Assembly (NCBI GenBank): GCA_963666425.2
Contig: OY762825.2
Coordinates: 1,702,143-1,766,142, forward strand
Direction of reading: 5' to 3'
Source: Bacillota bacterium
GTDB taxonomy: Bacteria > Bacillota > JAAYKD01
Length of the DNA stretch: 64,000 nt
Shown: positions 17,854 through 55,297 of the stretch, piece after piece
Layout of the letters: each line of letters opens with the position of its first letter
Position numbering within the stretch: position 1 is the stretch's first letter
Notes under the pieces: model-generated
The model's database searches: none
Told to the model about the DNA's origin: nothing
The model's input: only the letters and a program-made list of their open reading frames with translations
Made by a program: the position numbers and the translations under genes

Positions 17854-17962
17854 ATAAAAAAGGGTTGGCGTCCACAAAAAACTGGAAACTGTTATGGTCA
17901 TAAAGATCGATATTTTCGTCTGGAAAAGCAGGGAACAATTTTTAAGTAAGGAGATATTGACA

Positions 17963-32239: not shown

Positions 32240-32286
32240 AATACGCCTGTCACCACCGATCAACAACCGGCAGTGACAGGCGTATT
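32240..32286. terminator. bidirectional terminator between convergent genes
   Basis: 14-bp stem AATACGCCTGTCAC (32240-32253) / GTGACAGGCGTATT (32273-32286). Confidence 0.6.
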
Positions 32287-32317: not shown

Positions 32318-33370
32318 TTACTTTGCAAACTGAGTCAGCGCAGCAAATTGGCTTTGGGTTAAATCGCATCCATAGAAGAGTTGATAATATTCGGCTGTTT
32401 TTGCATAGAGATCATAATTCGTGGTTTCGGGATAAAGTAAGTCGGTCAGCCAGAGCATTCCCATGAAAATATTGACAGACGGAGGATCGCCCAACCAATT
32501 ATAAGGACCGCTGGGTACCTGATAAATATGACCGGCCGCAACGGCTTGCAGCTGCTGCCAGGCGGCATCCTGACCGACGGATGGATAGATACTGCCCGGT
32601 GCAAAGAGTATGACCTCTGGATCCCATAACAGCAGTTGTTCCAGATCCACTTCGTTGCCGCTGCCTTTGAAGGAAGGGGAAGCAACCACTGCCAGGTTAT
32701 TGCCTACCAGATCGATGACTTCGGCATGAAAAGAAGTCTTTGCAATCACATTGAGTCCGGTATCACCCAAACAATAGAGCAGGGAGGCTTTTTGTTGCTT
32801 GGCCAAAATCCCATTGACGGTGGACAGCGTTTCTTCACAGAAAGCCGCCAGTTTTTCCGCTTGTTCTTCCCGACCAAGCAGTTTTCCTAAGCTGCGGTAC
32901 GCTGCAGCCATGGTTTCTGTGGTGGCTTCAATATGGATGGTCGGGATGCCAATCTGCTGTTGGATGCCATCCATGTCTTCCACGATCGTTTTTTTGGATT
33001 CGCCAATATCAATGATCACCTGAGGATCCGCAGCGGCAACTGCTTCCGGATCTAAGGTGTTCACACCATAGAACTGGCCGAGCACCGGCAGTTGATCGTA
33101 TTTTATGTCGATGAATTGCTTGGCTTCGGGTGCCCATTCATCGGCTAAACCAACCAACAGATCGGGGCAAATGGCAAAGAGGACAATTTGAGCCATCAGA
33201 CCGGAAGCGGCGACACGGGTGATATTAGCAGGCAGTTCTACAGACCGTTTGCTGGAATCGATGAAATTGACGAGTTTCTCAGGGCTTTTTGCAGCCGGCG
33301 CAAAAGGATTACAGCCGGTCAGCAACAAGCAAATCACTAAGAGCAGAACGAACAATTTTTTTCTGTGCAA
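32318..33370 (-). CDS. ABC transporter substrate-binding lipoprotein, FecB/BtuF (iron-siderophore/cobalamin) class
   Basis: Lipobox LLLTGC. The sequence is typical of class III periplasmic binding proteins. Confidence 0.75.
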   Translation of the reverse strand: MHRKKLFVLLLVICLLLTGCNPFAPAAKSPEKLVNFIDSSKRSVELPANITRVAASGLMAQIVLFAICPDLLVGLADEWAPEAKQFIDIKYDQLPVLGQFYGVNTLDPEAVAAADPQVIIDIGESKKTIVEDMDGIQQQIGIPTIHIEATTETMAAAYRSLGKLLGREEQAEKLAAFCEETLSTVNGILAKQQKASLLYCLGDTGLNVIAKTSFHAEVIDLVGNNLAVVASPSFKGSGNEVDLEQLLLWDPEVILFAPGSIYPSVGQDAAWQQLQAVAAGHIYQVPSGPYNWLGDPPSVNIFMGMLWLTDLLYPETTNYDLYAKTAEYYQLFYGCDLTQSQFAALTQFAK

Positions 33371-33385
33371 GATGGATCTTCTCCT

Positions 33386-34156
33386 TTAATTGAATTTTGG
33401 GATGCAAACACGGACCTTATCATTTTGAAAACTTTCCACGGAAGCTTGGACGCCGTAGAGTTGCTCCAGCAAGTCTGCCGTGATCACTGCTCGGGCAGCT
33501 CCCTGTGCAACAATTTTGCCATTCTGCAGCGCCAGTACCTGGTTGGCATAACAAAGAGCGTGATCGGGATTGTGTGTTGAAAACAGAACGGTATAACCAT
33601 CCTGTGTTAAGCTTTGGATTTGACGCAGGACGTGCAGCGCATTGCCGTAATCCAGGCTGGCAGTGGGTTCATCCATGATCAGTATTTTCGCCCCCTGCGC
33701 CAGCGCACGGGCGATCAAGACCAGTTGAGCTTCGCCGCCGCTGATCTGTTCAAAGCCGCGTTCTGCCAAAGGTAGGATATTCAGTTTTTGTAAAGCGGCT
33801 TCCGCCTGATGATACTGTTTGCTCCCCGGCGCCTGCAGCATGCCAACCTGTGCCGTCGTACCCATCAAGACCATATCAAAGACACTGAAATTGAACGTCT
33901 GGCTGTGCGATTGTGGGATATAAGCAATTTCCGCAGCCAGTTCCCGGGCGGTCAAAGCAGATGCCTCCCTCCCGTTGATCTGAATGGAGCCATGATAGCG
34001 GAGCAGCCCCAGCATGCAGCGGAATAAGGTGCTCTTGCCGGCGCCATTGGGGCCCAACACCGCCAGTAATTCACCTGCCGCTGCGGTGAAACCAATTTGC
34101 TGCAGCACCGGTGTTTGGCCGTAATGGCAGTTTAAATCCCGGACGAGAATACTCAT
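33386..34156 (-). CDS. ABC transporter ATP-binding protein (FecE/BtuD class)
   Basis: Walker A GPNGAGKST, signature ISGGEAQ and Walker B ILIMDEP. Confidence 0.85.
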   Translation of the reverse strand: MSILVRDLNCHYGQTPVLQQIGFTAAAGELLAVLGPNGAGKSTLFRCMLGLLRYHGSIQINGREASALTARELAAEIAYIPQSHSQTFNFSVFDMVLMGTTAQVGMLQAPGSKQYHQAEAALQKLNILPLAERGFEQISGGEAQLVLIARALAQGAKILIMDEPTASLDYGNALHVLRQIQSLTQDGYTVLFSTHNPDHALCYANQVLALQNGKIVAQGAARAVITADLLEQLYGVQASVESFQNDKVRVCIPKFN

Positions 34157-35175
34157 AGCTGTTCTCCCTTTCCGGTGATCAGGTAGAGGAAGAAGGGAGC
34201 ACCGATCAGAGCCGTGAGAATGCCGATGGGAATCTCAATGGCCAGTAAATTACGGGAAACATTATCCACCAAGAGCAGAAACAAAGCGCCAAACAGCATG
34301 GCAACCGGCATCAGGGATTGATAATTGCTGCCAACCAGACGCCGGGAGAGATGGGGGATGACCAGGCCGACCCAACCGATCATACCGCTGACAGAGACCG
34401 CCGCGGCCGTGAGCAAGGTGGAAGCAAGAATCACCAGCAAACGCAGCATTTTGGCATTGATCCCCATGGTGCGGGCTTGATCATCGCCCAAGGTCAGCAG
34501 ATTGATCCGCCAGCGCAGCATCAGCAAAATCACAAGACCGACCAGCATCGGGAGGGTCACAAAGAGCAAGTCATTGGCTTTGATCCCAGCCAGACTGCCC
34601 ATCAGCCAGTAAGTGATGGCAGGCAGCTGATCGGTGGGATCCGCCACCAGCTTGAGAAAGGAAGTTCCGGCGGAAAAGAGGGAACTGATCATCATGCCGG
34701 ATAAAATGAAACCCAAAACACGGCTGCCTCTGGCGCGCAGGCTGATCAGCCAAACCAGCAAGACGGTGAGCAGGCTGAAACAGAAGGCGCTCAGCATAAT
34801 CAGCTGACTGCTGCCGCCCAAAAGAATGGCCAGGGCGGCGCCGAAGGCGGCTCCGGCCGTAGCGCCCAGAATATCCGGCGAAGCCATGGGGTTTTGGAAG
34901 ACACCCTGATAGGCGGCTCCGGCAGCGGAAAGAGAGCAGCCCACGAGGCAGGCGGCTAAGATCCGGGGCAGCCGAACATTGAAGACAATCGATTGCATCC
35001 GTTCCGTCCAGAAAGGCGTGATCGAAAAAAACCTGCCTGCCAAAATCCCAAGCAGCTCAGGCAGCGGCACCGGGTAGCGTCCCAGCAGAAAAGAAAGGCA
35101 GATCAGCAAAAACAGCAGCAGGCTGAGCATCAAAATAATCCGATTGGGATGTTTGACTTTGCTTTGTGGTTTCAT
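34153..35175 (-). CDS. ABC transporter permease, FecCD/BtuC family
   Basis: 340 aa with about 9-10 TM helices and a FecCD-type sequence. It has 4-nt overlaps with both neighbouring genes. Confidence 0.85.
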   Translation of the reverse strand: MKPQSKVKHPNRIILMLSLLLFLLICLSFLLGRYPVPLPELLGILAGRFFSITPFWTERMQSIVFNVRLPRILAACLVGCSLSAAGAAYQGVFQNPMASPDILGATAGAAFGAALAILLGGSSQLIMLSAFCFSLLTVLLVWLISLRARGSRVLGFILSGMMISSLFSAGTSFLKLVADPTDQLPAITYWLMGSLAGIKANDLLFVTLPMLVGLVILLMLRWRINLLTLGDDQARTMGINAKMLRLLVILASTLLTAAAVSVSGMIGWVGLVIPHLSRRLVGSNYQSLMPVAMLFGALFLLLVDNVSRNLLAIEIPIGILTALIGAPFFLYLITGKGEQL

Positions 35176-35795
35176 ACCGTTGCAACCTCGGCTGGATTCG
35201 CTCGTTGGCAGCTTGGCGGCACGGCCAGCTTGCCATTCCGCGCCAGGAAGTCATGCATTTCCTGCGCGCCGGGCAGGTAATCAACCAACTGCGTGCCAGG
35301 CATTGCACAGAACAGCGCTTCCAGTTCGTCGTGATAAAGCAGAAGATCAGGGCTGAGACGAGCTTGTTCGATCATTTGTGCCAGATTCGCCCGGCTTTTC
35401 CAAACGCCTAGAATAACACGGTCGGAGCAGAACAATTCCCGTAGTCGCTGCCGTACCGGAGGTAACTGCAGTTCGGCACCGCCGATTTCATCCAAAACCA
35501 GAAAGGGCTGGCACTCGGTCAGGGTGATGAATTGCCGCAGAAAGGCATCCGCTGCAAACTGAGCACCATCGGCCGTGAGATTCAAGAAAATACCAGCTTG
35601 CTTTGGGTCGTATGGCAGACAGGCTGTTTGAGCCTCTGCCGCCGGGGTCAGGCAGTAGGCTCTGATACCGCTCGGCAGCAGCAGACGCTGCACAATAAAA
35701 CCTCCGGCCGGCCGTTTTGCTTGACGTAGGGTTTGCAGCAGCAGGCTCGTCTTTCCGCTACCGGAAGGACCTTGCAATAGCAGCTTGGAGATCAT
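35172..35795 (-). CDS. P-loop NTPase (THEP1/DUF2478-like)
   Basis: Walker A GPSGSGKT and Walker B FLVLDEIG. It overlaps both neighbouring genes by 4 nt. Confidence 0.6.
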   Translation of the reverse strand: MISKLLLQGPSGSGKTSLLLQTLRQAKRPAGGFIVQRLLLPSGIRAYCLTPAAEAQTACLPYDPKQAGIFLNLTADGAQFAADAFLRQFITLTECQPFLVLDEIGGAELQLPPVRQRLRELFCSDRVILGVWKSRANLAQMIEQARLSPDLLLYHDELEALFCAMPGTQLVDYLPGAQEMHDFLARNGKLAVPPSCQRANPAEVATV

Positions 35796-36757
35796 TGCGT
35801 GTCACCTCCGGGCAGATACTGCTGGAAGCTCTCCTGGAATAATTGTTCGGAATAGAGTTCCAGGTCACGCTGCATTTTCAGAAACATCGTTAAGAATTCC
35901 GTGCCCTGTACGGTGAGTTGTGAACTGCCGCCGCGATCACCGCCGGGATGGCTATCCAATAAATCAAAACCCAATTGGCTCTCGGCCATCTTGATCATCT
36001 TCCAACCGGTCGAGTAAGACATCGAGAGCAGTTTGCAGGCGGCACTCAAAGAGCCGGCCAAAGCGATTTTTTCCAATAAAACGGCGGTATCATCCTGAAA
36101 AAATACTTCCCGTCGGCTGAAAGAGAGCTGCACGCTGCAAGTGACCGGATTAGTCTGCGACATTGCCGCAGCATAGAGTTTCAGGCGCTGATAATCTTCC
36201 GGCCGATCGGCATCCAGGGTCATGCCCAAATCCGGCAACTCAATCGTTTCTTTGCTGCATTCAAGCGAGGCCAGGGCAGCCTGTAAACCACCGTCGCCTT
36301 TGAATTGCAACAGGTCATGGATGATGCCGTTCTGCAGCAGCACAGGGTGGCCGGAGCGGCCTTTGTGGCTGGGAAACAGAATGGCAGAATGTGAGTAATC
36401 CATCAAGCCCATCATTGTCAGTAAAGAGCGTTTGGAGAACAGCGGCACATCGGCGGGCAGGAAAAAAAAGCGTTCGCAGCGCTCTTGGATCCATTGCAGG
36501 CCAAGGCAGGCGGAAAAAAACATATCCGTCGTGCGGTAATCCGGATTATAGAGGCAGGTAACGTCCAACGGGGCAAGATGATGCTGCAGCCGTTCCGCTT
36601 CCCGCCCGGTTATGACCACGATGGGATCGGCACCGGCGGCTTTCAGCGTTTCTATGGCGGTCTTAATGACGGTGGAACCACCCAGCTGCAGCATGGGTTT
36701 GAATGATTTCATGCGGGAAGATAAGCCTGCTGCGACAATGACTGCTCCGGTCTTCAT
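35792..36757 (-). CDS. MobA/MocA-like NTP transferase (probable Moco cytidylyltransferase) fused to ModE-type winged HTH
   Basis: An AGGAGG RBS precedes the ATG at 36757. The N-terminus MKTGAVIVAAGLSSRMKSFKPML is a MobA-like signature. The C-terminus ...IALAGSLSAACKLLSMSYSTGWKMIKMAE...GGDRGGSSQLT resembles the ModE N-terminal HTH. Confidence 0.7.
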   Translation of the reverse strand: MKTGAVIVAAGLSSRMKSFKPMLQLGGSTVIKTAIETLKAAGADPIVVITGREAERLQHHLAPLDVTCLYNPDYRTTDMFFSACLGLQWIQERCERFFFLPADVPLFSKRSLLTMMGLMDYSHSAILFPSHKGRSGHPVLLQNGIIHDLLQFKGDGGLQAALASLECSKETIELPDLGMTLDADRPEDYQRLKLYAAAMSQTNPVTCSVQLSFSRREVFFQDDTAVLLEKIALAGSLSAACKLLSMSYSTGWKMIKMAESQLGFDLLDSHPGGDRGGSSQLTVQGTEFLTMFLKMQRDLELYSEQLFQESFQQYLPGGDTQ

Positions 36758-36848
36758 AAGTAACCTCCTATCGAGTGATATCGTAAAACATAACGATGGC
36801 AGAAAGGGTCCCGGCAGGCGTTTCTGCCGGGAAGAGATCAGCTTTAGT

Positions 36849-37277
36849 TTATAACAGCTGCGGCAGCGTGTCAATTACAAAAGCCATGATCGCGGGACAA
36901 ATTTCCTGGGCTTGACCAGACTCCGACAGCCGCGCTTTTTGCTGTGGATCGGAAAGGTTGCTTTTTAGAATTTCCCGGCAGGTAAGACCGGGATACTCTT
37001 CCAGGAAATATTCCTGCAGGCGGCTGACTTTTGCTTTCAGCATGGCTTTTTGCTCTGTTGGCGCGCTGGTGCTGTTGCCGTAGCGTAAACCTAAAACCAT
37101 CACGGCAGCGGCATAGGCGCCGCAAACCTCACCGCAGTAGAGACCGCCGCCAAATCCAGCCGCCAGGCGGCGAGCCATGTCGGCAGAGAGGCCAAGTTGT
37201 TCAGCGAAGGCGGCCAACACGATTTGGGCACAGTTGAAACCGAGGGCATGCTGCTGATTCACGTAGGTGAGACTCAT
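36849..37277 (-). CDS. C-GCAxxG-C-C family redox protein
   Basis: Diagnostic Cys pattern: FNCAQ, CGEVCGAYAAA, LTCREIL and EICPAIM. Confidence 0.75.
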   Translation of the reverse strand: MSLTYVNQQHALGFNCAQIVLAAFAEQLGLSADMARRLAAGFGGGLYCGEVCGAYAAAVMVLGLRYGNSTSAPTEQKAMLKAKVSRLQEYFLEEYPGLTCREILKSNLSDPQQKARLSESGQAQEICPAIMAFVIDTLPQLL

Positions 37278-37280
37278 GGC

Positions 37281-37592
37281 TTACTCCCGATAAGAACAGC
37301 AGTAATCGGTGACGGTTTGCACTTTCAATTGAAAACGGGAATTGGCGGCAACGGTAAACTGACTGTCTGCTTCATAACGCCGGTATTCTGTTTCTCCGGG
37401 TAAGCGTACATCGACCGTGCCGGCTAAAATCTGCATCAGTTCTTCGGCTGCAGTGGCAAATTCGTATTCACCCGGCAAAAAAATACCTAGAGTTTTGCGT
37501 TCGCCCTGGGCGGTAAAGAAGGTGCGGCTGCTGACTTTGCCATCAAAATAGATATTGGCTTTGGCAATTAGGGTGACATTTTTAAATTCCAT
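37281..37592 (-). CDS. ppnP: PpnP-like (DUF1255 cupin) pyrimidine/purine nucleoside phosphorylase homolog
   Basis: ANIYFDGKVSSRTF...LPGEYEFATAAEELMQILAG...LPGE...FTVAANSRFQLKV...DYCCSY aligns well with E. coli YaiE/PpnP as I remember it. An AAGGAGGAAAG RBS precedes the ATG at 37592. Confidence 0.7.
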   Translation of the reverse strand: MEFKNVTLIAKANIYFDGKVSSRTFFTAQGERKTLGIFLPGEYEFATAAEELMQILAGTVDVRLPGETEYRRYEADSQFTVAANSRFQLKVQTVTDYCCSYRE

Positions 37593-37605
37593 AATTCTTT
37601 CCTCC

Positions 37606-38751
37606 TTAAAAAATCTTTCGTTTTCCGGCATCGCAATCGAGCTTACCGATGGTAATCTGAATCGGAAATTCCCGCTGCAGAGCAGTAAAAATACGGTCTT
37701 GTATTTGCTGCGGGCTGAGTAAGGTATCGAGTATGAGGTGTAAGTGATCCTGCTGCCGTTCTGCCCGGTAATTCTTTACCTCGGGTAGAGAAAAGACGGC
37801 TTGGTCCAGCTCATGCACCATCAGCCAGCCCCAAAGTTTTTCCTGCCGCAGCCGCGTTTGTTCTTCATCCAGGCGATAAGGATAGATGTCTGGCAGCAGG
37901 CGGCCGCGATCTCCGGTGCGGTAGCGCAGCAGCGGCATGGCTTCCCGCTGCAGTGTGGTCAGCACGATTTCACCCCAGTCACCCGGCCGTAAAAGCGTAT
38001 CGCTGTTGGGATCGGCAATTTCCAGCTTGATGTACGGGTGGCAGATTTGCAGGCCGGGTCCGTTTTGACAGCGCACCGCGCAGCCAAAGCCGCTTTCGGT
38101 CAGACCATAATGCGGATGTGTGCGGCAATGCCAGGTTTGCTCCAATTCACGCAGCAGCCAGGTAGGTGTATTATCGCCGGTCACCAGCAACGATTTAGGC
38201 CGCAGCTGCGGTGCGGCGCGGCTGAGAACCAGCAGGGGAATGGGATAACCGGCCAGACAATCCGCGTTTTGGGCAGCAAGCGCTGCTGCTGCCGGATTGG
38301 TGATAAAGCCATAGGCTTTGGCCTTTCCGCCAAAACTTGTAATCGCCTGCTCCAGTAAATCGCCCACGCTGTGCTCCGTGGCGCCGGGGAGAAAGAGAAC
38401 AGCCGTTTCACCGGGCTGCATCAACTCCCGCATACCTGCCGAAAAATATTCGATGGTGTGCAGCAAATCTCTTTTAGAAAAAAAGAGGCGTTTGGCTTGG
38501 CCGGTGGTACCGGAAGTGGGCAGCGTGGTGATGCGCGCCACCTGCCGCGGCGGGATGCAGAGAAAGCGCTGCGGATCCGCAATCAATTGGGCGGCGGTGG
38601 TGAAGGATGGAATATCTTGCGCGTAAAAATTCGAACGCTGCGCCTGCTTTATCTGCCGCTGCAGTGCCTGTTGCTGCCAGGCTTCGAGTGCTTGGAAGTC
38701 TGCAATTTGGCAATGCTGCAGCGTCCAATTTTCCACAAAAGATAGGCTCAT
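37606..38751 (-). CDS. adenylate-forming (ANL) ligase, PaaK/F390-synthetase-like
   Basis: AMP-binding P-loop TSGTTGQAKR. A GGAGGGAG RBS precedes the ATG at 38751, and an ATGA start/stop overlap links it to the methyltransferase gene. Confidence 0.7.
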   Translation of the reverse strand: MSLSFVENWTLQHCQIADFQALEAWQQQALQRQIKQAQRSNFYAQDIPSFTTAAQLIADPQRFLCIPPRQVARITTLPTSGTTGQAKRLFFSKRDLLHTIEYFSAGMRELMQPGETAVLFLPGATEHSVGDLLEQAITSFGGKAKAYGFITNPAAAALAAQNADCLAGYPIPLLVLSRAAPQLRPKSLLVTGDNTPTWLLRELEQTWHCRTHPHYGLTESGFGCAVRCQNGPGLQICHPYIKLEIADPNSDTLLRPGDWGEIVLTTLQREAMPLLRYRTGDRGRLLPDIYPYRLDEEQTRLRQEKLWGWLMVHELDQAVFSLPEVKNYRAERQQDHLHLILDTLLSPQQIQDRIFTALQREFPIQITIGKLDCDAGKRKIF

Positions 38752-40687: not shown

Positions 40688-40887
40688 TATTTATCCTCCA
40701 GTTCCTGCTCTACTTCCGCCATGCGTCCGCGCGCCAGTTCTTCCGGAATGTAAACCAGACCGCAGACGGGGCAGGTGGGAATATCGGTAAAAAAGCTGTG
40801 ACCCAGATAATGAAAGAACGTTTTTTTCGGCTGCAGCGCTACCTTGCAGCGGTAACAGATCAATTTCTTGGCGGTTGGTTCTGGCAT
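40687..40887 (-). CDS. 66-aa Cys4 zinc-ribbon / rubredoxin-like small redox protein
   Basis: CYRC...(27 aa)...CPVC. An AGGAGA RBS is present, and its TAA stop overlaps the ATG of the radical SAM gene (TAATG). Confidence 0.6.
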   Translation of the reverse strand: MPEPTAKKLICYRCKVALQPKKTFFHYLGHSFFTDIPTCPVCGLVYIPEELARGRMAEVEQELEDK

Positions 40888-40888
40888 T

Positions 40889-43105
40889 TTATGATTCTCC
40901 TAAGCTCATGCGGTGGCAGTAAGCATTTTCTAAGCAGCAGCCGTCGGCTGTCAATCGGTATTCGACCCAAAATGTCATTTGTCCGATTTGCAGGTGGCCA
41001 AAGCAAAGACCGCTTTCATCCATCGCTTTTTCGCCGCTTGTTTCGCAGTGACGGATCACAGCTTCGACATCCTCCAGCAAAATCAAATCACGGTGCAATT
41101 TTTCCGTCGTTTCCGGTGTAAGCCGGAGCTGCAGTCGGTTTTCTGACATGGGTGTTTCCTCCCCGAAAAATTCGTGTAAGAGTGTTTGCTTCAGCAGCCG
41201 ACGATTCTGGCGGCTCTCGCTGGCTGTGGGTGCCCTGCGATAGGCGGCTTCTTGGTCGGTGTGCCGGTTGAGAGCAAAGAGCAGATCGAGCAGATGATAG
41301 GCCGGTTTGCCCGCTCCGGCAAAAACATCGCGGCAGTTTGCACAGTAGGTGAGATACGGCAGTTCGCTCCTGGCAGCGCGATCGCGCACGACCGAAGCAA
41401 AATAAGCTGGATTGGCAATGGAAACCTGTCCGCCCCAACCACAGCAGAGCGGTAATTCCGCCTCATCTTCGATTTGGTAACCGGCTCTTTTTACCAAAGC
41501 GCGGACGCTCCCGTGTAATTCCGGATCTCCTTCCGATTGACAGGGGTCAAAGACCGCCAGCCGGGCTGCTTCTGCGGCGGTGATCGGCGGTTGAAAATCG
41601 TGCTGTTCCATCACCTGATAGAGCATGCGGCTTTCGATTTCCGGCAGAAATTGCCGGAAGATACTGCGGCAGCTGACGCAGGCAAAGATGGCAATCGGCC
41701 GACCGAAAGCCAGCCATTGCCGTCGGATCTGTTCTACCGTGCTCTGCAGGAGGGCCTGATCACCGGCCCAGAGCGCTGGCGCTCCGCAGCAGCCGGTGAA
41801 GATTGCCGTATCGGGTTCCACACTTAAAAGATAGCGATAACTCTCCGTGACATAACGCGGATCCGAACCGCCCAGACGGCAGCCGGGAAAGAAGAAGTAG
41901 CTGGTTTTTTTGCTCTGCGCGGCCGGACGAACCAGAGCAGAGTCCGCTCCGTTGGAAAACTCCAGATCCCGCAGCCAGAAAGCATGGAAAGGCCAGGGCA
42001 TGGCGCCTTTTTCCTGCATGCTGCGATGACTTTGTAAGAGAAAAGCGCCGGTATCAATGCCTTGCGGACAGACGGTTTTACAGACGTCGCAATGATTGCA
42101 GGTTGCGATCAGCCGAGTAGCCACCGTGCCGTTGCCATCCAGCGTACCGGGGTGAATCGTGACCTCCACCTCTTCCTCGATACGGCCGGGCGATTTGCCG
42201 TAATAACGCATCAGGTCACAGTGCTGCAGACAGGCATCGCATTGACATTTCAGACAGCGCTTGGCTTCTTGGACTGCCTGGTCTCGTGTAAAATCGCCGT
42301 CGGTAACAGCGGGCAGCGCCAGGGGAATGGATCTGGCATCCATGACCAGTTTGGTCTCCTGCCTGGCTTCCGGTGAGCGCATCAGCCCGGTTTTCAGGTA
42401 AGCTTCGATCACACCGGCCATCCTCAAGCCGGTGGCAATGGCGTCGGCCGGCTGTTCACCGCCGCCCAGAAAAACACCGTCTTGCCCGCTGACTCCAGCC
42501 GGGCCGCCAAAACCAAAACGATTGCCCTGTGGACCGATTGCGATATAAATCGCGTCGGCTGTGATCGTCGCAAGATCAGTAATTTCGCAATTCAGCTTCA
42601 GCTCATAATGTTCATAGCTAAATTGCAGCTCGAGATCGGGTAAAAATTGTTCCGGCGGCAGCAGATCCCAGAGGCAGCCACCGATGCGATTGCTCTTTTC
42701 ATAGAGGACAACCTCGTACTTGCGGGCGGTCAGCCGCAGCGCACAGGCAAGACCATCCGGTCCTGCGCCAATGATAGCAATTTTTTTATTTTTCGCCGGC
42801 AGCTGATACTGATTTGGTTGGCGATTGGCAGCGTAGGCAACCGCCGCTTGTTCCAATTTGCCCAGCAGCACAGCTTCGTCTTTTTCTTGGCGGATACAGG
42901 CAGCTGCGCAAGGCCGATGGCAGATCTGGGCAACAATCGCCGGAAAGCCGACCGTATTCTGGAACAGTCGATAAGCACTATTGAAGCTGCCGCGCTGCAG
43001 GCGGCTGATCAAGTCGCGCACATCCAGCCCGAAAGGACAGACAGATGAGCAAAACGGTGGTTCTTCCCGCAGACAATTTTTCAGTGTTTCTTTGAAATCA
43101 CGCAT
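40889..43105 (-). CDS. multidomain flavo-Fe-S oxidoreductase: GltD-like pyridine-nucleotide module, 2x[4Fe-4S] ferredoxin, two CCG (HdrD/HdrB-type) domains
   Basis: Dinucleotide fold KIAIIGAGPDGLACA. Cys clusters CLKCQCDACLQHC and CNHCDVCKTVCP. CCG motifs FFFPGC...TGCCGAP and FDPC...LCCGWGG. Confidence 0.75.
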   Translation of the reverse strand: MRDFKETLKNCLREEPPFCSSVCPFGLDVRDLISRLQRGSFNSAYRLFQNTVGFPAIVAQICHRPCAAACIRQEKDEAVLLGKLEQAAVAYAANRQPNQYQLPAKNKKIAIIGAGPDGLACALRLTARKYEVVLYEKSNRIGGCLWDLLPPEQFLPDLELQFSYEHYELKLNCEITDLATITADAIYIAIGPQGNRFGFGGPAGVSGQDGVFLGGGEQPADAIATGLRMAGVIEAYLKTGLMRSPEARQETKLVMDARSIPLALPAVTDGDFTRDQAVQEAKRCLKCQCDACLQHCDLMRYYGKSPGRIEEEVEVTIHPGTLDGNGTVATRLIATCNHCDVCKTVCPQGIDTGAFLLQSHRSMQEKGAMPWPFHAFWLRDLEFSNGADSALVRPAAQSKKTSYFFFPGCRLGGSDPRYVTESYRYLLSVEPDTAIFTGCCGAPALWAGDQALLQSTVEQIRRQWLAFGRPIAIFACVSCRSIFRQFLPEIESRMLYQVMEQHDFQPPITAAEAARLAVFDPCQSEGDPELHGSVRALVKRAGYQIEDEAELPLCCGWGGQVSIANPAYFASVVRDRAARSELPYLTYCANCRDVFAGAGKPAYHLLDLLFALNRHTDQEAAYRRAPTASESRQNRRLLKQTLLHEFFGEETPMSENRLQLRLTPETTEKLHRDLILLEDVEAVIRHCETSGEKAMDESGLCFGHLQIGQMTFWVEYRLTADGCCLENAYCHRMSLGES

Positions 43106-43125
43106 TTTTGCTCCTTTGGCTTGCT

Positions 43126-43169
43126 AAAAAAAGGAGAGGATCATTCACTTTTGTGAATCATCCTCTCCT
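43126..43169 (-). terminator. intrinsic terminator between mop and the accessory operon
   Basis: On the minus-strand RNA, AGGAGAGGAUGAUUCAC-AAAA-GUGAAUGAUCCUCUCCU forms a stem of 16 bp plus one G.G mismatch, followed by U7. The next RBS and ATG (43105) start about 10 nt after the U run. Confidence 0.7.
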
Positions 43170-43291
43170 CGTATTTTGAGAAGCGATGAAACGGAAGTGA
43201 GTTACACAACCGTTTACAAACGCAGCGGCATAGGGCCTGGCGGCGTCGATTTTTAAGATCAACCATTCAGAAGGGGATCAATCTCACCCGT

Positions 43292-46207
43292 TTAGAAGAA
43301 TTTTTCAGCGCCTTCACCCAGTGCTACAAAGTGGTCGATTTTACCCACTTTGACAGGATTGGCTTTGATGTTGTCCAGTTCTTCATAAAGATCGGAGCCG
43401 AGGAAGTATTTTTTAGGTGTGATCTGGCCGCCGGCGGCTAAGAGATCGAGACCGGCCTTGACTTTGGCCGGCAAAGCGGGCATTTCATAAATGCGCACCC
43501 CACAGGCGTTATAGATGGCGTTCAGGACGGCAACATGGCCGGCAGATTGATAAGCCTCGGATGCGCCGGAAGAGCCGAACGGTCCGACTTCATCGGGACG
43601 TTCGTAATGGATGACATTGATCTCATCCGGAATGTCTTTGATATATGGCACGCCGCTGGTCAGGTGGTTGGTGTGCTTTTTCACATCATCGTAATTTTCG
43701 CTTAAGGCAAAACCGATCGAATGAGAAATGCCGCCGTAAGCCTGGCCGTTGACTGCATCGATATTACCGATTTTACCAACGTCATCGACGACTGTGAAAC
43801 GCAGAACGGTCGTCTTGCCGGTGGCGGTATCCACTTCTACTTCCGCCAGGTTCAAGCAGTAAGTATAGGCTGGATTGGGATCACCGATGCCGGTATTGGG
43901 ATCGAGACGGCAGAGACCGGCAACGCTTGTATTGGAATAAGTGCCTTCATATTTGGTGGGAATGCCTTCCGCAATCATTTCTTCGTAGGTGCGGTAAGTG
44001 CCGTCCGGTTTGGTCATGGCTTTGATCAGTTTTTCTGCCGCGATCCGGGTCGCATTGCCGCTCATGAAGTGCGTGCGGCTGGCGCCGGACATGCCGCTGT
44101 CGGGGCACTCTTTGGTATCATTCTGAATCAAACGGATTTGATCCGGTTTGACGCCCAGCGGTTTCAGAGATTCCAGGGTCAGCATCAGGGAGCCGATATC
44201 GCCGCCCTGACCCAATTCCTGATAGGTATCATATTTATAGAACATTTGATTCGGCGCGATTTCAATGGCAGCGGAGGCTTTGTCGGTACCGCCTTCGGTC
44301 ACATTGAAACCACCCCAGGCCAAACCAACGCCGCGGCGTTTGGCCGCCGTGCTGGCAGCTTTGGCTTGCGCCACCGCTGTATCGTAGTAAGGCTTCATCA
44401 TTTTCATAATGGCTTCCATCGGATATTGCCGATAGGGATAACTGTTGGTATTGGTCTGACCTTCCCGGGCAATGTTGCGCCAGCGGAATTCAAAAGGATC
44501 AATCCCGGCTTTGGCAGCCAGCATATCCATCATCGCTTCGGAATGCGTGTAGGCCTGGGGAGAACCATAACCGCGGTAAGCGGTGCCAAAATTATGATTG
44601 GTGTTGGCAATCCGCGCCAATCCGGCCACATTGGGCACATAGTAGGGGAAATAAGCGAAACGTGGCAGTTTGGTCATCAAATCATCGCCGCCCCAGGAGT
44701 AAGCGCCATGATCGATGCCGTAATCGAATTCGGCAGCCGTGATTTTACCGTTGCTGTCGCAGGCAAGACGGCCGTTGGAGTAAGCCGGGCAACGTTTGCC
44801 GCTGAAATGCTGATGTTCTTCATAAGTCATGGAGAGTGCAACCGGCATTTTCGTCACCACAGCGGCAGCGCCGGCTAGGACCAGATCACCCGCATTGGTG
44901 GACCAGCCAAAAGAAGCGCCGGTCGGGTTCATAATCACCCGCATTTTCGCCTTCGGCACGCCTAGAGAATTACCGATGCGGCCGAGAGAAGAATAAACAC
45001 CCTGGGATTTGCACTGGAAAGTCAGGTTGTCTTCTTCATCAAAGTAGGCTTGAATGGTATCGCCTTCCACGGAAAGATGAGGTTCGCGGGTGGAATAGTA
45101 ACTGCCTTCTACGCTGTAGGCCGCATGATCAATCAGGTCGGCTACTTTGCCGGCATCTTCCAGGCCAACCCCTTTGAGTACGGGCTGCATGGCGAATATA
45201 TTCGGTGTGTCCTGATGAATCCGCATGGCATCCGGCATGACGGCATCGAGATAGCTTAAATACTCCGGTAATTTTTCCAATTCAACCTTTACTTTGGCAG
45301 CGGCGGCACGGGCATGATCTTTGGTATCGGCTACAACCAACGCTACAACATCGCCATAGCGATAAATTTTATCTTCACACAAAACTTTGCGGCTGGGTAC
45401 CATAACGGTGGTGCGCTCATGGAACTGACCTTCCGCCATGATATTGGAACCGCCGGCGGCTTTTAACTCTTTGGCTGTGATGACTTTAACGACGCCGGGC
45501 ATTTGCTCAGCTGCATCAAAATCTATTTTTAAGATTTTAGCGTGATGCGCCAAACGCGGTTGGACCATCACGGCATGCAGACTTTCTGCCGGCATCTTTA
45601 ACTCCTGATCATCGCCGTAATCAGCCAGACCACAGACTTTTGCCAAGGCAGTGGGGCGTACCAGGGGTTTGCCGTAATATTCATTATCGGTAGGCAATTG
45701 GAAGGTAATCTCTTCGATGGTAGCCTCACCGCGCATCACTGTGGCAGCCGCGATAACGGCATCCACCAGTTGCTTATAACCGGTGCAGCGGCAGACGTTG
45801 CGATGTTGTTGGAACCAATCGCGCACCTCTTCCCGGCTGGGATTGCAGTTTTTCAATAATAAAGCATAAGAGGAGACAATAAAGCCCGGGGTGCAGAAAC
45901 CGCATTGTACCGCGCCGCAATTCATCCAGGCAACCTGCAGGGGATGCAGATGCGTGGGGGTACCGATTCCTTCAATGGTGATGACTTTGCTGTATTCTTT
46001 GATCGTCTTGATTTTGCGGACACAGGAACGAATCAGTTCACCGTCCAGAACAACCGAGCAGGAACCGCAGACACCGGTACCACAGCCGACTTTTACGCCG
46101 GTGAGACCAATTCTGCGCAGAATATCAGCAAGAGAATCTTTTTCCGGATCGCAAAGGAACATCCGATTTGCGCCGTTGATATTCAGCCACATCTTACGTA
46201 ACTTCAT
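43292..46207 (-). CDS. molybdopterin-dependent aldehyde oxidoreductase (Mop type: 2x[2Fe-2S] + Moco domains, no FAD domain)
   Basis: N-terminal plant-type and second [2Fe-2S] motifs GCGTGVCGSCSV and CGFCTPGF...CRCTGY. A large xanthine-oxidase-family Moco domain (971 aa total) follows directly, with no FAD domain between. A GGAGG RBS is present. Confidence 0.85.
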   Translation of the reverse strand: MKLRKMWLNINGANRMFLCDPEKDSLADILRRIGLTGVKVGCGTGVCGSCSVVLDGELIRSCVRKIKTIKEYSKVITIEGIGTPTHLHPLQVAWMNCGAVQCGFCTPGFIVSSYALLLKNCNPSREEVRDWFQQHRNVCRCTGYKQLVDAVIAAATVMRGEATIEEITFQLPTDNEYYGKPLVRPTALAKVCGLADYGDDQELKMPAESLHAVMVQPRLAHHAKILKIDFDAAEQMPGVVKVITAKELKAAGGSNIMAEGQFHERTTVMVPSRKVLCEDKIYRYGDVVALVVADTKDHARAAAAKVKVELEKLPEYLSYLDAVMPDAMRIHQDTPNIFAMQPVLKGVGLEDAGKVADLIDHAAYSVEGSYYSTREPHLSVEGDTIQAYFDEEDNLTFQCKSQGVYSSLGRIGNSLGVPKAKMRVIMNPTGASFGWSTNAGDLVLAGAAAVVTKMPVALSMTYEEHQHFSGKRCPAYSNGRLACDSNGKITAAEFDYGIDHGAYSWGGDDLMTKLPRFAYFPYYVPNVAGLARIANTNHNFGTAYRGYGSPQAYTHSEAMMDMLAAKAGIDPFEFRWRNIAREGQTNTNSYPYRQYPMEAIMKMMKPYYDTAVAQAKAASTAAKRRGVGLAWGGFNVTEGGTDKASAAIEIAPNQMFYKYDTYQELGQGGDIGSLMLTLESLKPLGVKPDQIRLIQNDTKECPDSGMSGASRTHFMSGNATRIAAEKLIKAMTKPDGTYRTYEEMIAEGIPTKYEGTYSNTSVAGLCRLDPNTGIGDPNPAYTYCLNLAEVEVDTATGKTTVLRFTVVDDVGKIGNIDAVNGQAYGGISHSIGFALSENYDDVKKHTNHLTSGVPYIKDIPDEINVIHYERPDEVGPFGSSGASEAYQSAGHVAVLNAIYNACGVRIYEMPALPAKVKAGLDLLAAGGQITPKKYFLGSDLYEELDNIKANPVKVGKIDHFVALGEGAEKFF

Positions 46208-46349
46208 TTTTTTACCTCCATAATTTGATTTTTAAAAGAAGAACCCAAGTTAATTTCATTCTATTTCGGCAGGATGTTTGTGTCTACCGTAAAAATCGTT
46301 AAAGGCTTGACTGAAAATTGGGTCTTAGGGGGAAAATGTGATGAATCTG

Positions 46350-55286: not shown

Positions 55287-55297
55287 ATCCCGTAAAG

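What the first reader, a model, noticed from the sequence alone, without database searches (positions are those of the whole stretch)
32318..46207. Mop-type molybdenum aldehyde oxidoreductase followed by a 12-gene, translationally coupled accessory operon of unknown function
Seen in the sequence: twelve minus-strand genes from 43105 down to 32318 are packed with start/stop overlaps or gaps of a few nt.
- 40889/40887: 1-nt gap.
- 40687: TAATG overlap.
- 39341/39332: 10-nt overlap.
- 38751/38748: ATGA overlap.
- 37281/37277: 3-nt gap.
- 35795/35792, 35175/35172 and 34156/34153: 4-nt overlaps.

In order, the products are:
- a GltD-like/2x4Fe4S/CCG-domain reductase;
- a 66-aa Cys4 protein;
- a radical SAM enzyme;
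- a SAM methyltransferase;
- an ANL adenylating ligase;
- a PpnP-like cupin;
- a C-GCAxxG-C-C protein;
- a MocA-like NTP transferase fused to a ModE-type HTH;
- a P-loop NTPase;
- a FecBCD/BtuFCD-type importer.

From memory: protein families named after the Desulfovibrio vulgaris DVU_1551-DVU_1557 neighbourhood (NTP transferase, AMP-dependent ligase, C-GCAxxG-C-C protein, methyltransferase, small redox protein) and a radical SAM '(seleno)protein TrsS' were defined purely by comparative genomics. In D. vulgaris that neighbourhood also sits beside mop. I know of no biochemical characterisation.

Inference: this is a dedicated maturation, cofactor-tailoring and/or electron-transfer module for the Mop enzyme. 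MocA would make the cytosine dinucleotide form of Moco. The rest could modify the pterin or Mo site, or a Cys-rich carrier.
Basis: partly seen in the sequence, partly recalled or inferred. Interest (0 to 1): 0.85.

Follow-up and report, generated by a model that had tools for sequence, protein, structure and literature searches.

The report
Mop aldehyde oxidoreductase with accessory operon
A 14-kb operon links the classic molybdenum aldehyde oxidoreductase Mop to a widely conserved set of partner genes of unknown chemistry, plus molybdate-uptake and cofactor genes; the set is real and specific to Mop, but comparative genomics has already named it.

Summary
Thirteen minus-strand genes (46207 to 32318) lie between a promoter-like site and a strong terminator, and eight junctions overlap or leave at most 3 nt.

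Curated NCBIfam models for Mop, diclust_near_Sec, DVU_1557, TrsS and MTase_DVU1556 all pass their cut-offs.

The link to Mop holds across phyla:
- Mop lies next to TrsS in 26 of 33 well-flanked TrsS loci.
- All 6 well-flanked Mop-clade metagenome loci carry the set.
- None of 68 distant xanthine-oxidase-family loci does.

What I add:
- The importer is MolBC-A-type, so probably a molybdate/tungstate importer.
- The 66-aa Cys4 protein is a subunit of the flavo-iron-sulfur/CCG protein, because fusions exist.
- The methyltransferase and ligase are fused in five genomes.
- TrsS has the GDGT-MAS/Tes fold and is fused to a C-GCAxxG-like domain in some genomes.
- Crystallised Desulfovibrio-type Mop sits in the same cluster, which argues against pterin tailoring.

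Best reading: Mop, a dedicated redox partner, Mo supply and cytosine-dinucleotide cofactor (MCD) synthesis, and an unresolved TrsS/methyltransferase/ligase maturation trio.

This is a new member of a known kind, and its biochemistry remains open.

The parts
46258..46286 (-). Promoter-like site upstream of mop (TAGACA-17-TAGAAT)
   Evidence: Best consensus match in the region, 10 of 12. This is a consensus match only.
43292..46207 (-). Mop: FAD-less molybdenum aldehyde oxidoreductase, 971 aa (2x[2Fe-2S] plus Mo-cofactor domains)
   Evidence: NF045668 scores 1145 bits, above the 1100 cut-off. Pfam finds Fer2, Fer2_2, Ald_Xan_dh_C and MoCoBD_1/2. It scores 805 and 796 bits to D. desulfuricans and D. 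gigas Mop, 1DGJ and 1VLB. A conserved C-terminal extension is absent from the Desulfovibrio enzymes.
43125..43169 (-). Terminator-like or attenuator-like hairpin (17-bp stem, 4-nt loop, U7) between mop and the accessory genes
   Evidence: at -29.5 kcal/mol. It is conserved in L162 and, with different stem letters, in L081. There is no Rfam match.
40889..43105 (-). 'Diclust': 738-aa flavo-iron-sulfur protein. It has a GltD/NfnB-like 4Fe-4S domain plus a FAD-type Rossmann fold, a ferredoxin-like dicluster domain and two CCG motifs like HdrD.
   Evidence: NF045663 scores 705 bits, above 530. Pfam finds Fer4_20, NAD_binding_8, Fer4_17 and CCG. The N-terminal 150-190 residues match GltD, NfnB and DPD in the PDB.
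40687..40887 (-). DVU_1557-family Cys4 protein (DUF7479), 66 aa; a subunit of Diclust
   Evidence: NF045645 scores 85 bits, above 60. In the loci checked it directly follows Diclust, even where TrsS sits elsewhere. It is fused to the C-terminus of Diclust-type proteins in seven database proteins.
39332..40687 (-). TrsS: radical SAM enzyme of the Tes/GDGT-MAS fold, Cys form, 451 aa
   Evidence: NF045646 scores 518 bits, above 490. The Tes model scores 296, below 450. 7TOL matches at E 1.5e-69. Foldseek gives TM 0.68 to 7TOM/7TOL. The TGA is a true stop and the conserved C-terminal residue is Cys.
38748..39341 (-). DVU_1556-family class I SAM methyltransferase, 197 aa
   Evidence: NF045667 scores 180 bits, above 155. 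It lies directly upstream of the ligase wherever both were detected, and is fused to it in L008, L013, L030, L032 and L036.
37606..38751 (-). PaaK-type adenylate-forming ligase, 381 aa from the ATG at 38751
   Evidence: NF045666 scores 287 bits, just below the 300 cut-off. PaaK, AjiA1 and NatL2-type ligases are the PDB matches.
37281..37592 (-). PpnP-like cupin, 103 aa from the ATG at 37592
   Evidence: Pfam PF06865 at E 7e-37. The NCBIfam equivalog scores 76, below 143. It is present in 8 of 80 loci and in L081.
36849..37277 (-). C-GCAxxG-C-C family protein, 142 aa
   Evidence: TIGR01909 scores 63 bits, above 47. The DVU_1555 sub-model scores 56, below 103. The family occurs in 33 of 80 loci, usually directly upstream of mop.
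35792..36757 (-). MocA-type NTP transferase fused to a ModE-type HTH, 321 aa from the ATG at 36757
   Evidence: PF12804 at E 4e-31 and HTH_1. TIGR03310 (MocA) scores 120, below 186. NF045665 scores 193, below 315, and matches only the N-terminal 209 of 359 positions. The ModE N-domain scores 50, below 98. The same fusion occurs in L015, L039 and L081.
35172..35795 (-). THEP1-type P-loop NTPase (PF03266), 207 aa
   Evidence: Pfam E 7e-8. It is fused to the FecCD-type permease in L081. NTPase_1 genes recur in 8 of 80 loci, next to DUF364 or fused to a methyltransferase.
34153..35175 (-). MolB-like type II ABC permease
   Evidence: It scores 262 bits (E 9e-77) to HI1471 (2NQ2), against 170 for FhuB and 127 for BtuC.
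33386..34156 (-). ABC ATPase of the importer
   Evidence: Matches heme, corrinoid and Fe-dicitrate type ATPases.
32318..33370 (-). Class III substrate-binding lipoprotein (MolA-like)
   Evidence: 4PAG at E 2e-41. MolA (HI_1472, 3PSA) matches partially at E 1.5e-9. A lipobox LLTGC is present. A 47%-identical copy lies beside a Desulfovibrio-type Mop cluster in L087.
32241..32285 (-). Intrinsic terminator-like hairpin (20-bp stem) ending the unit

Best explanation
This is one instance of the conserved Mop/TrsS neighbourhood, the DVU_1551-DVU_1559 type. It reads as four modules.

1. **Mop.** The FAD-less molybdenum aldehyde oxidoreductase. Shown by homology.
2. **A dedicated redox partner.** This is the 738-aa protein, which combines a GltD/NfnB-like Fe-S plus flavin domain, a ferredoxin-like domain and an HdrD-like CCG pair. 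The 66-aa Cys4 protein is its subunit. The C-GCAxxG-C-C protein is probably a further thiol/Fe-S carrier. Together they give Mop the flavin/Fe-S exit route it lacks. The subunit relation is shown by fusions; the electron path is inferred.
3. **Molybdenum supply and cofactor finishing.** A MolBC-A-type importer with its THEP1-type NTPase brings in molybdate or tungstate. A MocA-type cytidylyltransferase fused to a ModE-type HTH makes the cytosine dinucleotide cofactor and may regulate the unit. Inferred from homology.
4. **TrsS, a SAM methyltransferase and a PaaK-type ligase.** I think these act on one common molecule. The ligase activates a carboxylate, the methyltransferase methylates the same molecule, and TrsS performs a radical C-H activation with a C-C or C-S bond-forming step, as its relative Tes does. 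The likely result is to build or install a group or cofactor needed by the Mop redox system. The most likely target is the C-GCAxxG-C-C/DUF5714-type protein or the CCG flavoprotein, not Mop's pterin. This last module is inference.
For: **Family identity.** Five curated models pass their cut-offs.

**Specific, cross-phylum linkage**
- Among 33 TrsS loci with at least 8 kb on both sides, Mop occurs in 26, Diclust in 27, DVU_1557 in 26, the methyltransferase in 24 and the ligase in 25.
- A Mop-centred metagenome sample gave 6 of 6 Mop-clade loci with the set. It gave 0 of 68 among xanthine-oxidase-family loci at 25-33% identity.

**Module 2**
- In the loci checked, DVU_1557 directly follows Diclust even where TrsS sits elsewhere.
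- Seven Diclust-DUF7479 fusion proteins exist.
- The Mop-to-Diclust gap is only 2-26 nt in ten loci.
- The Mop/Diclust/Cys4/C-GCAxxG set was noted as a unit in C. ljungdahlii, where one of two tandem copies is up-regulated on syngas and H2/CO2.

**Module 3**
- The permease scores 262 bits to MolB, and the binding protein hits MolA.
- MolBCA is a Mo uptake system.
- The NTPase is fused to the permease in L081.
- DUF364, known from molybdate operons, and NTPase_1 recur in these clusters.
- XdhC occurs in 22 loci, MocA-type genes in 23 and NifS in 5.

**Module 4**
- The methyltransferase and ligase are fused in five loci, and DUF5714 is fused to TrsS in L028, L033 and P0020.
- DUF5714 carries a GG-CGA-G motif resembling C-GCAxxG.
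- No recurrent catabolic enzymes or substrate transporters appear in 80 neighbourhoods. What recurs is cofactor- and metal-handling proteins: XdhC, MocA, NifS, CobW-type GTPase, NifX-like, DUF364.
- A conserved hairpin plus U-tract after mop in this lineage suggests lower expression of the accessory genes.
Against: - There are no experimental data on any accessory gene.
- Characterised PaaK-type ligases act on free aromatic acids.
- NAD-type aldehyde dehydrogenases (10 loci) and family III CoA-transferases (3 loci) near the cluster hint at small-molecule metabolism.
- One metagenome-assembled genome (MAG) carries two complete clusters, each with its own TrsS and ligase (L034 and L035). That is unusual for a shared maturation service, though bin contamination is possible.
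- Seven of 33 well-flanked TrsS loci lack Mop within 10 kb.
- The hhalign link between C-GCAxxG and DUF5714 is weak, at probability 31% and E 5e-4.
- Whether Diclust binds NAD(P)H is unresolved. Only its first Rossmann motif matches GltD.
- The binding protein's match to MolA is partial.
Confidence: 0.45

Rival explanations
1. TrsS, the methyltransferase and the ligase are pathway enzymes. They act on a free small molecule that is the substrate or product of Mop. For example, an aldehyde is oxidised to an aromatic or acyl acid, which is then adenylated or CoA-activated and methylated. The cluster would then be a short catabolic or detoxification route rather than a maturation system.
For: - PaaK-type ligases of known function activate free aromatic acids.
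- The methyltransferase weakly resembles small-molecule enzymes such as UbiE, BioC and fatty-acid O-methyltransferases.
- Aldehyde dehydrogenases lie nearby in 10 loci.
- CoA-transferase III and enoyl-CoA hydratase are inserted between TrsS and the ligase in L003.
- Whole-cluster duplication in one MAG fits diverged substrate specificities (L034/L035).
Against: - No consistent downstream catabolic genes or substrate transporter appear across 80 loci.
- The recurrent extras are cofactor and metal handlers.
- TrsS is fused to a Cys-rich protein domain, DUF5714, not to a metabolic enzyme.
- From memory, Mop enzymes are broad-range aldehyde oxidisers that need no such partners in vitro.
Confidence: 0.25
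2. The trio tailors the molybdopterin, for example by methylating the pterin, or tailors the Mo coordination sphere of Mop itself. That could include delivery of a labile sulfido or selenido ligand.
For: - The genes are strictly linked to the Mop clade.
- XdhC, MocA and NifS lie in the same clusters.
- TrsS, C-GCAxxG-C-C and neighbours have selenoprotein variants according to their NCBIfam names and to the review table.
- Pfam names the N-terminal ribbon after a supposed pterin methylase.
Against: - That pterin-methylase protein, MJ0619, is now the solved tetraether synthase GDGT-MAS. The identity with MJ0619 is from my memory; the PDB match to GDGT-MAS is.
- A Mop scoring 1171 bits to D. desulfuricans Mop and 1157 to D. 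gigas Mop sits in a full TrsS cluster. From my memory, the high-resolution structures of those native enzymes show ordinary MCD and no covalent modification.
- XdhC plus NifS already account for standard sulfuration.
- No Sec forms were seen in 80 loci.
Confidence: 0.12
3. TrsS is a true lipid enzyme like Tes, coupling alkyl chains. The cluster (ligase, methyltransferase, aldehyde oxidoreductase) would then serve the synthesis of membrane-spanning or ether lipids.
For: - TrsS has the GDGT-MAS fold, at TM 0.68 and E 1.5e-69.
- Bacterial Tes homologues have been proposed as brGDGT synthases.
- The enzyme types present could in principle activate, methylate and reduce fatty acids.
Against: - TrsS scores 296 against the Tes model, below its 450 cut-off.
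- No lipid-biosynthesis genes appear in 80 neighbourhoods.
- From memory, Mop is a soluble enzyme acting on short and aromatic aldehydes.
- From memory, Desulfovibrio species that carry the cluster are not known to make tetraethers.
Confidence: 0.04
4. The genes are merely adjacent and have no functional link to Mop.
For: None beyond the 186-nt gap and the hairpin after mop.
Against: Gene order is conserved in several phyla. The accessory set is present in 6 of 6 well-flanked Mop-clade loci and in 0 of 68 distant xanthine-oxidase-family loci.
Confidence: 0.01

Closest known systems
TrsS / DVU_1551-DVU_1559 neighbourhood (NCBIfam NF045645, NF045646, NF045663, NF045665-NF045669; Haft & Tolstoy 2025, mSystems, which I could not read)
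   Same: It shares the same families in essentially the same order. Five models pass their curated cut-offs. D. vulgaris has Mop at DVU_1559 and a Cys-rich Fe-S protein at DVU1558.
   Different: - TrsS here is the Cys form, not the selenoprotein form.
- The NTP transferase carries a ModE-type HTH instead of the family's HD domain.
- The ligase, the C-GCAxxG protein and the NTP transferase fall below the specific cut-offs.
- Extra genes are present: a PpnP-like cupin, an NTPase_1 and a MolBC-A-type importer.
Mop/AOR of Desulfovibrio gigas and D. desulfuricans (PDB 1VLB, 1DGJ)
   Same: The domain order is the same and there is no FAD domain. The scores are 796-805 bits over the full length.
   Different: This Mop belongs to another clade. 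It has a conserved C-terminal extension of about 50 aa (KYFLGSDLYEEL..IKANPV...ERFF) that the crystallised enzymes lack.
Tetraether synthase Tes / GDGT-MAS (PDB 7TOL, 7TOM)
   Same: It shares the N-terminal rubredoxin-like ribbon, two CX3CX2C motifs, the radical SAM core and the C-terminal RC..H...PFC motif. It has the same overall fold.
   Different: - It scores below the Tes cut-off, 296 against 450.
- It is shorter.
- It has a conserved CDHPLCGFHGD motif just beyond the main stretch aligned to GDGT-MAS.
- Its genomic context is a molybdoenzyme, not lipid genes.
HdrD/HdrBC-type CCG proteins and GltD/NfnB-type flavo-iron-sulfur subunits
   Same: The N-terminal Fer4_20 plus Rossmann region matches GltD, NfnB and DPD. 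The C-terminal half has a ferredoxin-like dicluster domain and two CCG motifs, as in HdrD, GlcF and LdhH.
   Different: Both parts sit in one chain, with an extra Cys4 subunit. No second dinucleotide-binding domain was detected by homology. The substrate of the CCG site is unknown.
MolBC-A molybdate/tungstate importer of Haemophilus influenzae (HI1470-HI1472)
   Same: The permease is by far most similar to MolB. The binding protein belongs to the same class and hits MolA. The importer sits beside a Mo enzyme and a ModE-type HTH.
   Different: The match to MolA is only partial and the ligand is untested. An NTPase_1 gene is coupled or fused to the permease.
Accessory sets of other xanthine-oxidase-family enzymes (MocA plus XdhC/PaoD; CoxDEF of CO dehydrogenase)
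   Same: Cofactor-finishing genes are encoded next to the structural gene. MocA-type and, in other genomes, XdhC and NifS are present.
   Different: No other xanthine-oxidase-family locus sampled here has a radical SAM enzyme, methyltransferase or ligase (0 of 68). This window has no XdhC in the cluster.
Clostridium ljungdahlii tandem Mop gene sets (CLJU_RS11815-11870)
   Same: They contain the same four proteins: Mop, the FAD/CCG fusion protein, the Cys4 protein and the C-GCAxxG-C-C protein.
   Different: Only the four redox genes were described there. Whether TrsS, the methyltransferase and the ligase lie between the sets could not be checked.

Membership tests
NF045668 molybdopterin-dependent aldehyde oxidoreductase (Mop) | HMM score at or above the curated cut-off of 1100 bits | tested here: met
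   1145 bits over positions 2-904 of 905.
NF045668 molybdopterin-dependent aldehyde oxidoreductase (Mop) | Two [2Fe-2S] domains fused to the Mo-cofactor domains, with no FAD domain | tested here: met
   Pfam finds Fer2, Fer2_2, Ald_Xan_dh_C and MoCoBD_1/2 only.
NF045668 molybdopterin-dependent aldehyde oxidoreductase (Mop) | MCD cofactor and aldehyde oxidation | not testable with these tools
   Needs biochemistry.
NF045646 radical SAM (seleno)protein TrsS | HMM score at or above 490 bits | tested here: met
   518 bits.
NF045646 radical SAM (seleno)protein TrsS | CX3CX2C radical SAM motif plus auxiliary Cys motifs | tested here: met
   C95/C99/C102, C70/C74/C77 and the N-terminal C12/C15/C37/H40 are invariant in 16 sequences.
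NF045646 radical SAM (seleno)protein TrsS | Selenocysteine (optional in the family) | tested here: not met
   The TGA at 39332-39334 is the true stop. The conserved C-terminal residue is Cys443. No in-frame TGA aligned with Cys in 80 loci.
NF045702 tetraether lipid synthase Tes | HMM score at or above 450 bits | tested here: not met
   296 bits. TrsS has the same fold but is not a member.
NF045663 diclust_near_Sec | HMM score at or above 530 bits | tested here: met
   705 bits over the full length.
NF045645 DVU_1557 family redox protein | HMM score at or above 60 bits | tested here: met
   85 bits. Pfam DUF7479 at E 2e-26.
NF045667 DVU_1556 family methyltransferase | HMM score at or above 155 bits | tested here: met
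   180 bits.
NF045666 DVU_1553 family AMP-dependent ligase | HMM score at or above 300 bits | tested here: not met
   287 bits. It is a syntenic counterpart just below the cut-off, with a longer C-terminal domain.
NF045669 DVU_1555 family C-GCAxxG-C-C protein | HMM score at or above 103 bits | tested here: not met
   56 bits. The general family TIGR01909 is met, at 63 against 47.
NF045665 DVU_1551 family NTP transferase | HMM score at or above 315 bits over both domains (NTP transferase plus HD) | tested here: not met
   193 bits, matching profile positions 2-209 of 359 only. The C-terminus here is an HTH.
TIGR03310 MocA (Moco cytidylyltransferase) | HMM score at or above 186 bits | tested here: not met
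   120 bits at E 8e-35. It is a likely functional analogue but not a curated equivalog. The N-terminal VAAGLSSRM resembles the MocA-type TAAG motif (from memory).
MolBC-A type II Mo/W importer | Permease closest to MolB (HI1471) | tested here: met
   262 bits, against 170 for the next family.
MolBC-A type II Mo/W importer | Binding protein binds molybdate or tungstate | tested here: inconclusive
   Only a partial match to MolA, residues 229-334 at E 1.5e-9. Binding residues were not evaluated.
NF007875 PpnP nucleoside phosphorylase | HMM score at or above 143 bits | tested here: not met
   76 bits. The Pfam fold family PF06865 is met.

The most novel reading that the evidence does not exclude
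TrsS, the methyltransferase-ligase pair and the C-GCAxxG-C-C/DUF5714 protein make a previously unknown sulfur- or selenium-bearing redox cofactor or protein modification. This group would be the physiological electron acceptor that the HdrD-like CCG module reduces when Mop oxidises aldehydes. That would be a new cofactor pathway built around a Tes-fold radical SAM enzyme. It would also supply the missing physiological partner of a 30-year-old model molybdoenzyme.
Probability: 0.2. Interest if true: 0.85.

Novelty: new member of a known kind. Interest (0 to 1): 0.5.

Why it matters
- **An open question about a model enzyme.** Mop is a textbook molybdoenzyme whose physiological partners have never been settled. 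Here its whole clade proves tied to a flavo-iron-sulfur/CCG protein and to a radical SAM, methyltransferase and ligase trio that no other sampled xanthine-oxidase-family enzyme has. That turns 'what does Mop work with in the cell' into a concrete genetic experiment in tractable hosts such as D. vulgaris and C. ljungdahlii.
- **A caution for lipid biomarker work.** TrsS would probably pass the BLAST thresholds used to list bacterial 'Tes homologues' as candidate brGDGT synthases. Yet it sits in a molybdoenzyme cluster.
- **An annotation gain.** The MolBC-A-like importer coupled to an NTPase_1, together with the recurrent DUF364, adds a probable Mo-supply role to two poorly understood families.

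Tried and rejected
- **Selenoprotein forms.** Reading through the TGA stop of TrsS gives no conserved extension. No TGA aligned with Cys in 80 loci. The N-terminally short homologue P0084 is a mis-called start, not a Sec site.
- **Riboswitch or other known RNA.** The window gave no Rfam hit at gathering thresholds. The mop-Diclust spacer gave only noise at E up to 10. There are no tRNAs.
- **ModE-box-like inverted repeat upstream of mop.** None found.
- **Diclust-DVU_1557 fusion in L029 and L064.** The long ORFs were start-calling artefacts. Real fusions came from the representative search.
- **C-GCAxxG versus DUF5714 homology.** hhalign gave only 31% probability, so I use it as a motif-level lead only.
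- **TrsS loci without Mop as a separate paralogue family.** A tree shows most of them interspersed with Mop-linked ones. Only L065, L075 and L076 form a distinct branch.
- **Literature.** Haft & Tolstoy 2025 is not held. Searches for the DVU_155x locus tags, DUF7479 and DUF5714 found no functional study. The D. vulgaris RB-TnSeq paper does not mention these genes in its main text.
- **TrsS structure model.** The AlphaFold model has low confidence (pLDDT 64) in the cluster-binding loops. I used it only for the global fold match.
- **C. ljungdahlii locus.** It could not be fetched, so whether its two Mop sets share one TrsS remains a guess from locus-tag numbering.

Full report
**1. Observation**

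Eight junctions are overlaps or gaps of at most 3 nt:
- 40889/40887
- 40687
- 39341/39332
- 38751/38748
- 37281/37277
- 35795/35792
- 35175/35172
- 34156/34153

Four junctions are looser.
- Mop to the next gene is 186 nt. This gap holds a 17-bp hairpin followed by U7.
- Ligase to the PpnP-like gene is 13 nt, if the ATG at 37592 is used.
- The C-GCAxxG gene to the NTP transferase is 91 nt, if the ATG at 36757 is used. This gap holds a promoter-like TTGACA-17-TAAACT.
- ATPase to the binding protein is 15 nt.

The best promoter-like site lies just upstream of mop, at 46286-46258. A 20-bp-stem terminator follows the last gene, at 32285-32241.

The cluster is richer in G+C than its surroundings, 0.53-0.57 against 0.41-0.49 for most of the window. 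The flanking genes are unrelated to it. They encode an MMPL transporter, TetR and MerR regulators, a pentapeptide-repeat protein and a ferredoxin-like protein.

**2. Gene identities**

| Gene product | Result |
|---|---|
| Mop | NF045668, 1145 bits (cut-off 1100) |
| 738-aa protein ('Diclust') | NF045663 diclust_near_Sec, 705 (530) |
| 66-aa protein | NF045645 DVU_1557 family, 85 (60); Pfam DUF7479 |
| Radical SAM enzyme | NF045646 TrsS, 518 (490) |
| Methyltransferase | NF045667, 180 (155) |
| Ligase | NF045666, 287, just below 300 |
| C-GCAxxG protein | TIGR01909 met; DVU_1555 sub-model not met |
| NTP transferase | Matches only the N-terminal half of NF045665 and, below cut-off, MocA. C-terminus is a ModE-type HTH; the DVU_1551 family has an HD domain there |
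| PpnP-like protein | Meets the Pfam fold family only |
| NTPase | PF03266 (THEP1 type) |

TrsS ends at a TGA, but this is a true stop. The conserved C-terminal residue is Cys. The closest named TrsS relatives are from Negativicutes MAGs, at 84% identity.

**3. What the proteins resemble**

- **Mop.** It scores 805 and 796 bits to the crystallised D. desulfuricans and D. gigas enzymes. It also carries a conserved C-terminal extension that they lack.
- **TrsS.** It is a clear relative of the tetraether synthase GDGT-MAS, at E 1.5e-69 to 7TOL. A moderate-confidence model matches 7TOM over its full length, at TM 0.68. The next best match, MoaA, reaches only 0.38. TrsS fails the Tes cut-off, at 296 against 450. 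It also has its own invariant CDHPLCGFHGD motif.
- **The 738-aa protein.** It joins a GltD/NfnB/DPD-like Fe-S plus Rossmann region to a ferredoxin-like domain and two CCG motifs of the HdrD/GlcF/LdhH kind.
- **The ligase.** It is PaaK-like.
- **The importer.** The permease is far closer to MolB of the H. influenzae MolBC-A molybdate/tungstate importer than to FhuB or BtuC. The scores are 262 bits at E 9e-77, against 170 and 127. The binding protein hits MolA partially. MolBC-A is an established Mo uptake system.

**4. Comparative genomics from the TrsS side**

A pattern scan of one genome per species returned 597 TrsS-encoding stretches, of which I examined the best 80. They come from:
- Bacillota
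- Bacteroidota
- Synergistota
- Acidobacteriota
- Desulfobacterota
- a Vecturithrix MAG

Among the 33 loci with at least 8 kb on both sides of TrsS, the counts are as follows.

| Gene | Loci out of 33 |
|---|---|
| Mop | 26 |
| Diclust | 27 |
| DVU_1557 | 26 |
| Methyltransferase | 24 |
| Ligase | 25 |
| C-GCAxxG or DUF5714 | 20 |

The usual order is C-GCAxxG, Mop, Diclust, DVU_1557, TrsS, methyltransferase, ligase. This is often followed by MocA-type, XdhC, DUF364 and NTPase_1 genes.

Three sub-modules stay together when the order changes.
- Diclust with DVU_1557.
- The methyltransferase with the ligase. These two are fused in L008, L013, L030, L032 and L036.
- TrsS with DUF5714 where DUF5714 is present. 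These two are fused in L028, L033 and P0020.

A search of 1.8 billion representative proteins found seven proteins with DUF7479 fused to the C-terminus of a Diclust-type chain. The Cys4 protein is therefore a subunit of Diclust.

The other recurrent neighbours are listed below.

| Neighbour | Loci out of 80 |
|---|---|
| MocA-type | 23 |
| XdhC | 22 |
| NAD-type aldehyde dehydrogenase | 10 |
| DUF364 | 8 |
| NTPase_1 | 8 |
| CobW-type GTPase | 6 |
| NifS | 5 |
| NifX-like | 4-5 |

DUF364 is known from molybdate-uptake operons. No catabolic enzyme set or substrate transporter recurs.

**5. Comparative genomics from the Mop side**

A metagenome scan with generic xanthine-oxidase-family patterns gave an informative mixture.
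- Six Mop-clade loci with enough flank all carry Diclust, DVU_1557, the methyltransferase and TrsS. These are L082, L083, L084, L085, L087 and L093. All but L084, which is cut off at TrsS, also show the ligase.
- None of 68 loci encoding distant family members, at 25-33% identity, carries any of these genes.

One of the six, L087, encodes a Mop that scores 1171 bits to D. desulfuricans Mop and 1157 bits to D. gigas Mop. It also has XdhC, MocA-type, NTPase_1 and a binding protein 47% identical to the window's.

The crystallised kind of Mop therefore comes from organisms with this accessory set. From my memory, those structures show ordinary MCD without covalent changes. That argues against pterin tailoring.

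**6. Close relatives of this window**

L081 keeps the order, apart from the C-GCAxxG gene, through to the importer. There the NTPase_1 is fused to the permease. L162 keeps the order through to the NTP transferase, where the contig ends. The hairpin after mop is conserved in both. In L081 its stem letters differ. In ten other loci the Mop-to-Diclust gap is only 2-26 nt.

**7. Literature**

- TrsS and its NCBIfam model are listed in a 2026 review, which cites Haft & Tolstoy 2025. That paper is not held.
- In D. vulgaris, DVU_1559 is the aldehyde oxidoreductase. DVU1558 is a Cys-rich/iron-sulfur protein.
- In C. ljungdahlii, two tandem sets of Mop, the FAD/CCG fusion protein, the Cys4 protein and the C-GCAxxG-C-C protein were described. 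The first set is up-regulated on syngas and H2/CO2.
- I found no biochemical work on the accessory genes.

**8. Interpretation**

The locus is a self-contained Mop unit with four modules:
- the enzyme;
- a dedicated flavo-iron-sulfur/CCG redox partner, with its Cys4 subunit and probably the C-GCAxxG protein;
- Mo import and cytosine-dinucleotide cofactor synthesis, with a possible regulator;
- TrsS, the methyltransferase and the ligase.

For the last module I favour a maturation or cofactor-building role for the redox system, at confidence 0.45. The reasons are:
- the strict, clade-specific linkage;
- the fusions;
- the company of metal- and cofactor-handling genes;
- the absence of pathway genes.

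A small-molecule pathway role remains a serious rival, at 0.25. Pterin or Mo-site tailoring is less likely, at 0.12. A lipid role is unlikely, at 0.04.

**9. Verdict**

The system is already defined by comparative genomics, so this is a new member of a known kind with some variant parts. The variant parts are:
- the MocA-HTH fusion;
- the NTPase_1 plus MolBC-A-type importer;
- the PpnP-like cupin;
- the C-terminal extension on Mop.

Its chemistry is still unknown and worth testing.

Noticed in passing
window 43125-43169 (-): A 17-bp hairpin plus U7 lies between the mop stop and the next start, about 20 nt before the next RBS. It is conserved in L162 and, with different stem letters, in L081. 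It may set a high Mop to accessory-protein ratio, or it may be a regulated attenuator.
   Followed up: partly
window 36846-36874 (-): A promoter-like TTGACA-17-TAAACT lies just upstream of the MocA-HTH gene. It may be an internal promoter for the Mo-supply half of the cluster.
   Followed up: no
window 16086-19162 (+): Two MinD/CbiA-type ATPases with 4Fe-4S inserts lie next to an Mrp/NUBPL-type ParA fused to a NifX-like (Nitro_FeMo-Co) domain. NifX-like genes lie inside TrsS clusters in L045, L055, L061 and L078.
   Followed up: no
window 34000-46000 and 52000-56000: The Mop cluster (G+C 0.53-0.57) and the TldD/PmbA, D-lyxose isomerase and PfkB block (0.53-0.55) are richer in G+C than most of the window, at 0.41-0.49. 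PfkB and lyxose isomerase also flank the cluster in L081.
   Followed up: no
L034 and L035 (same MAG, CAZBYL01): Two complete Mop/Diclust/TrsS/ligase clusters lie in one Synergistaceae bin. Either they are paralogous systems or the bin is mixed.
   Followed up: no
L007, L011, L012, L017, L024, L028, L033, L049, L059, L067, L073 (DUF5714 genes): DUF5714 has an N-terminal Cys/His ribbon and a GG-x-CG-x3-CGA-x2-G-x-GIA motif plus RCC and C..CP motifs that recall C-GCAxxG-C-C. hhalign gives only 31% probability.
   Followed up: partly
alignment A2 (C-GCAxxG-C-C proteins): The profile weakly hits the N-terminal part of the split-Soret cytochrome c of D. desulfuricans (1H21), at E 0.003. From memory, that protein carries an unusual Fe-S centre, so this may hint that the family binds an Fe-S cluster.
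   Followed up: no
L065, L075, L076: A distinct long-branch TrsS clade has no Mop nearby. It is followed by an HD-domain gene, and by DUF364 in L076.
   Followed up: no
L012, L057, L067, L080: A second xanthine-oxidase-family gene of about 885-890 aa, 33-36% identical to Mop, sits beside the Mop/TrsS cluster. In L012, L057 and L067 it is accompanied by NifS.
   Followed up: no
window 9894-13040 (-), 57935-62572 (+), 20709-23048 (+): Three unrelated genes: a PLD-nuclease/ResIII-helicase/DUF3427 protein, a 1545-aa SLH-domain surface protein, and the anaerobic ribonucleotide reductase NrdD.
   Followed up: no
window 26964-27716 (-): A 250-aa protein with two MerR-type HTH domains in tandem lies next to an MFS transporter and a TetR regulator.
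   Followed up: no
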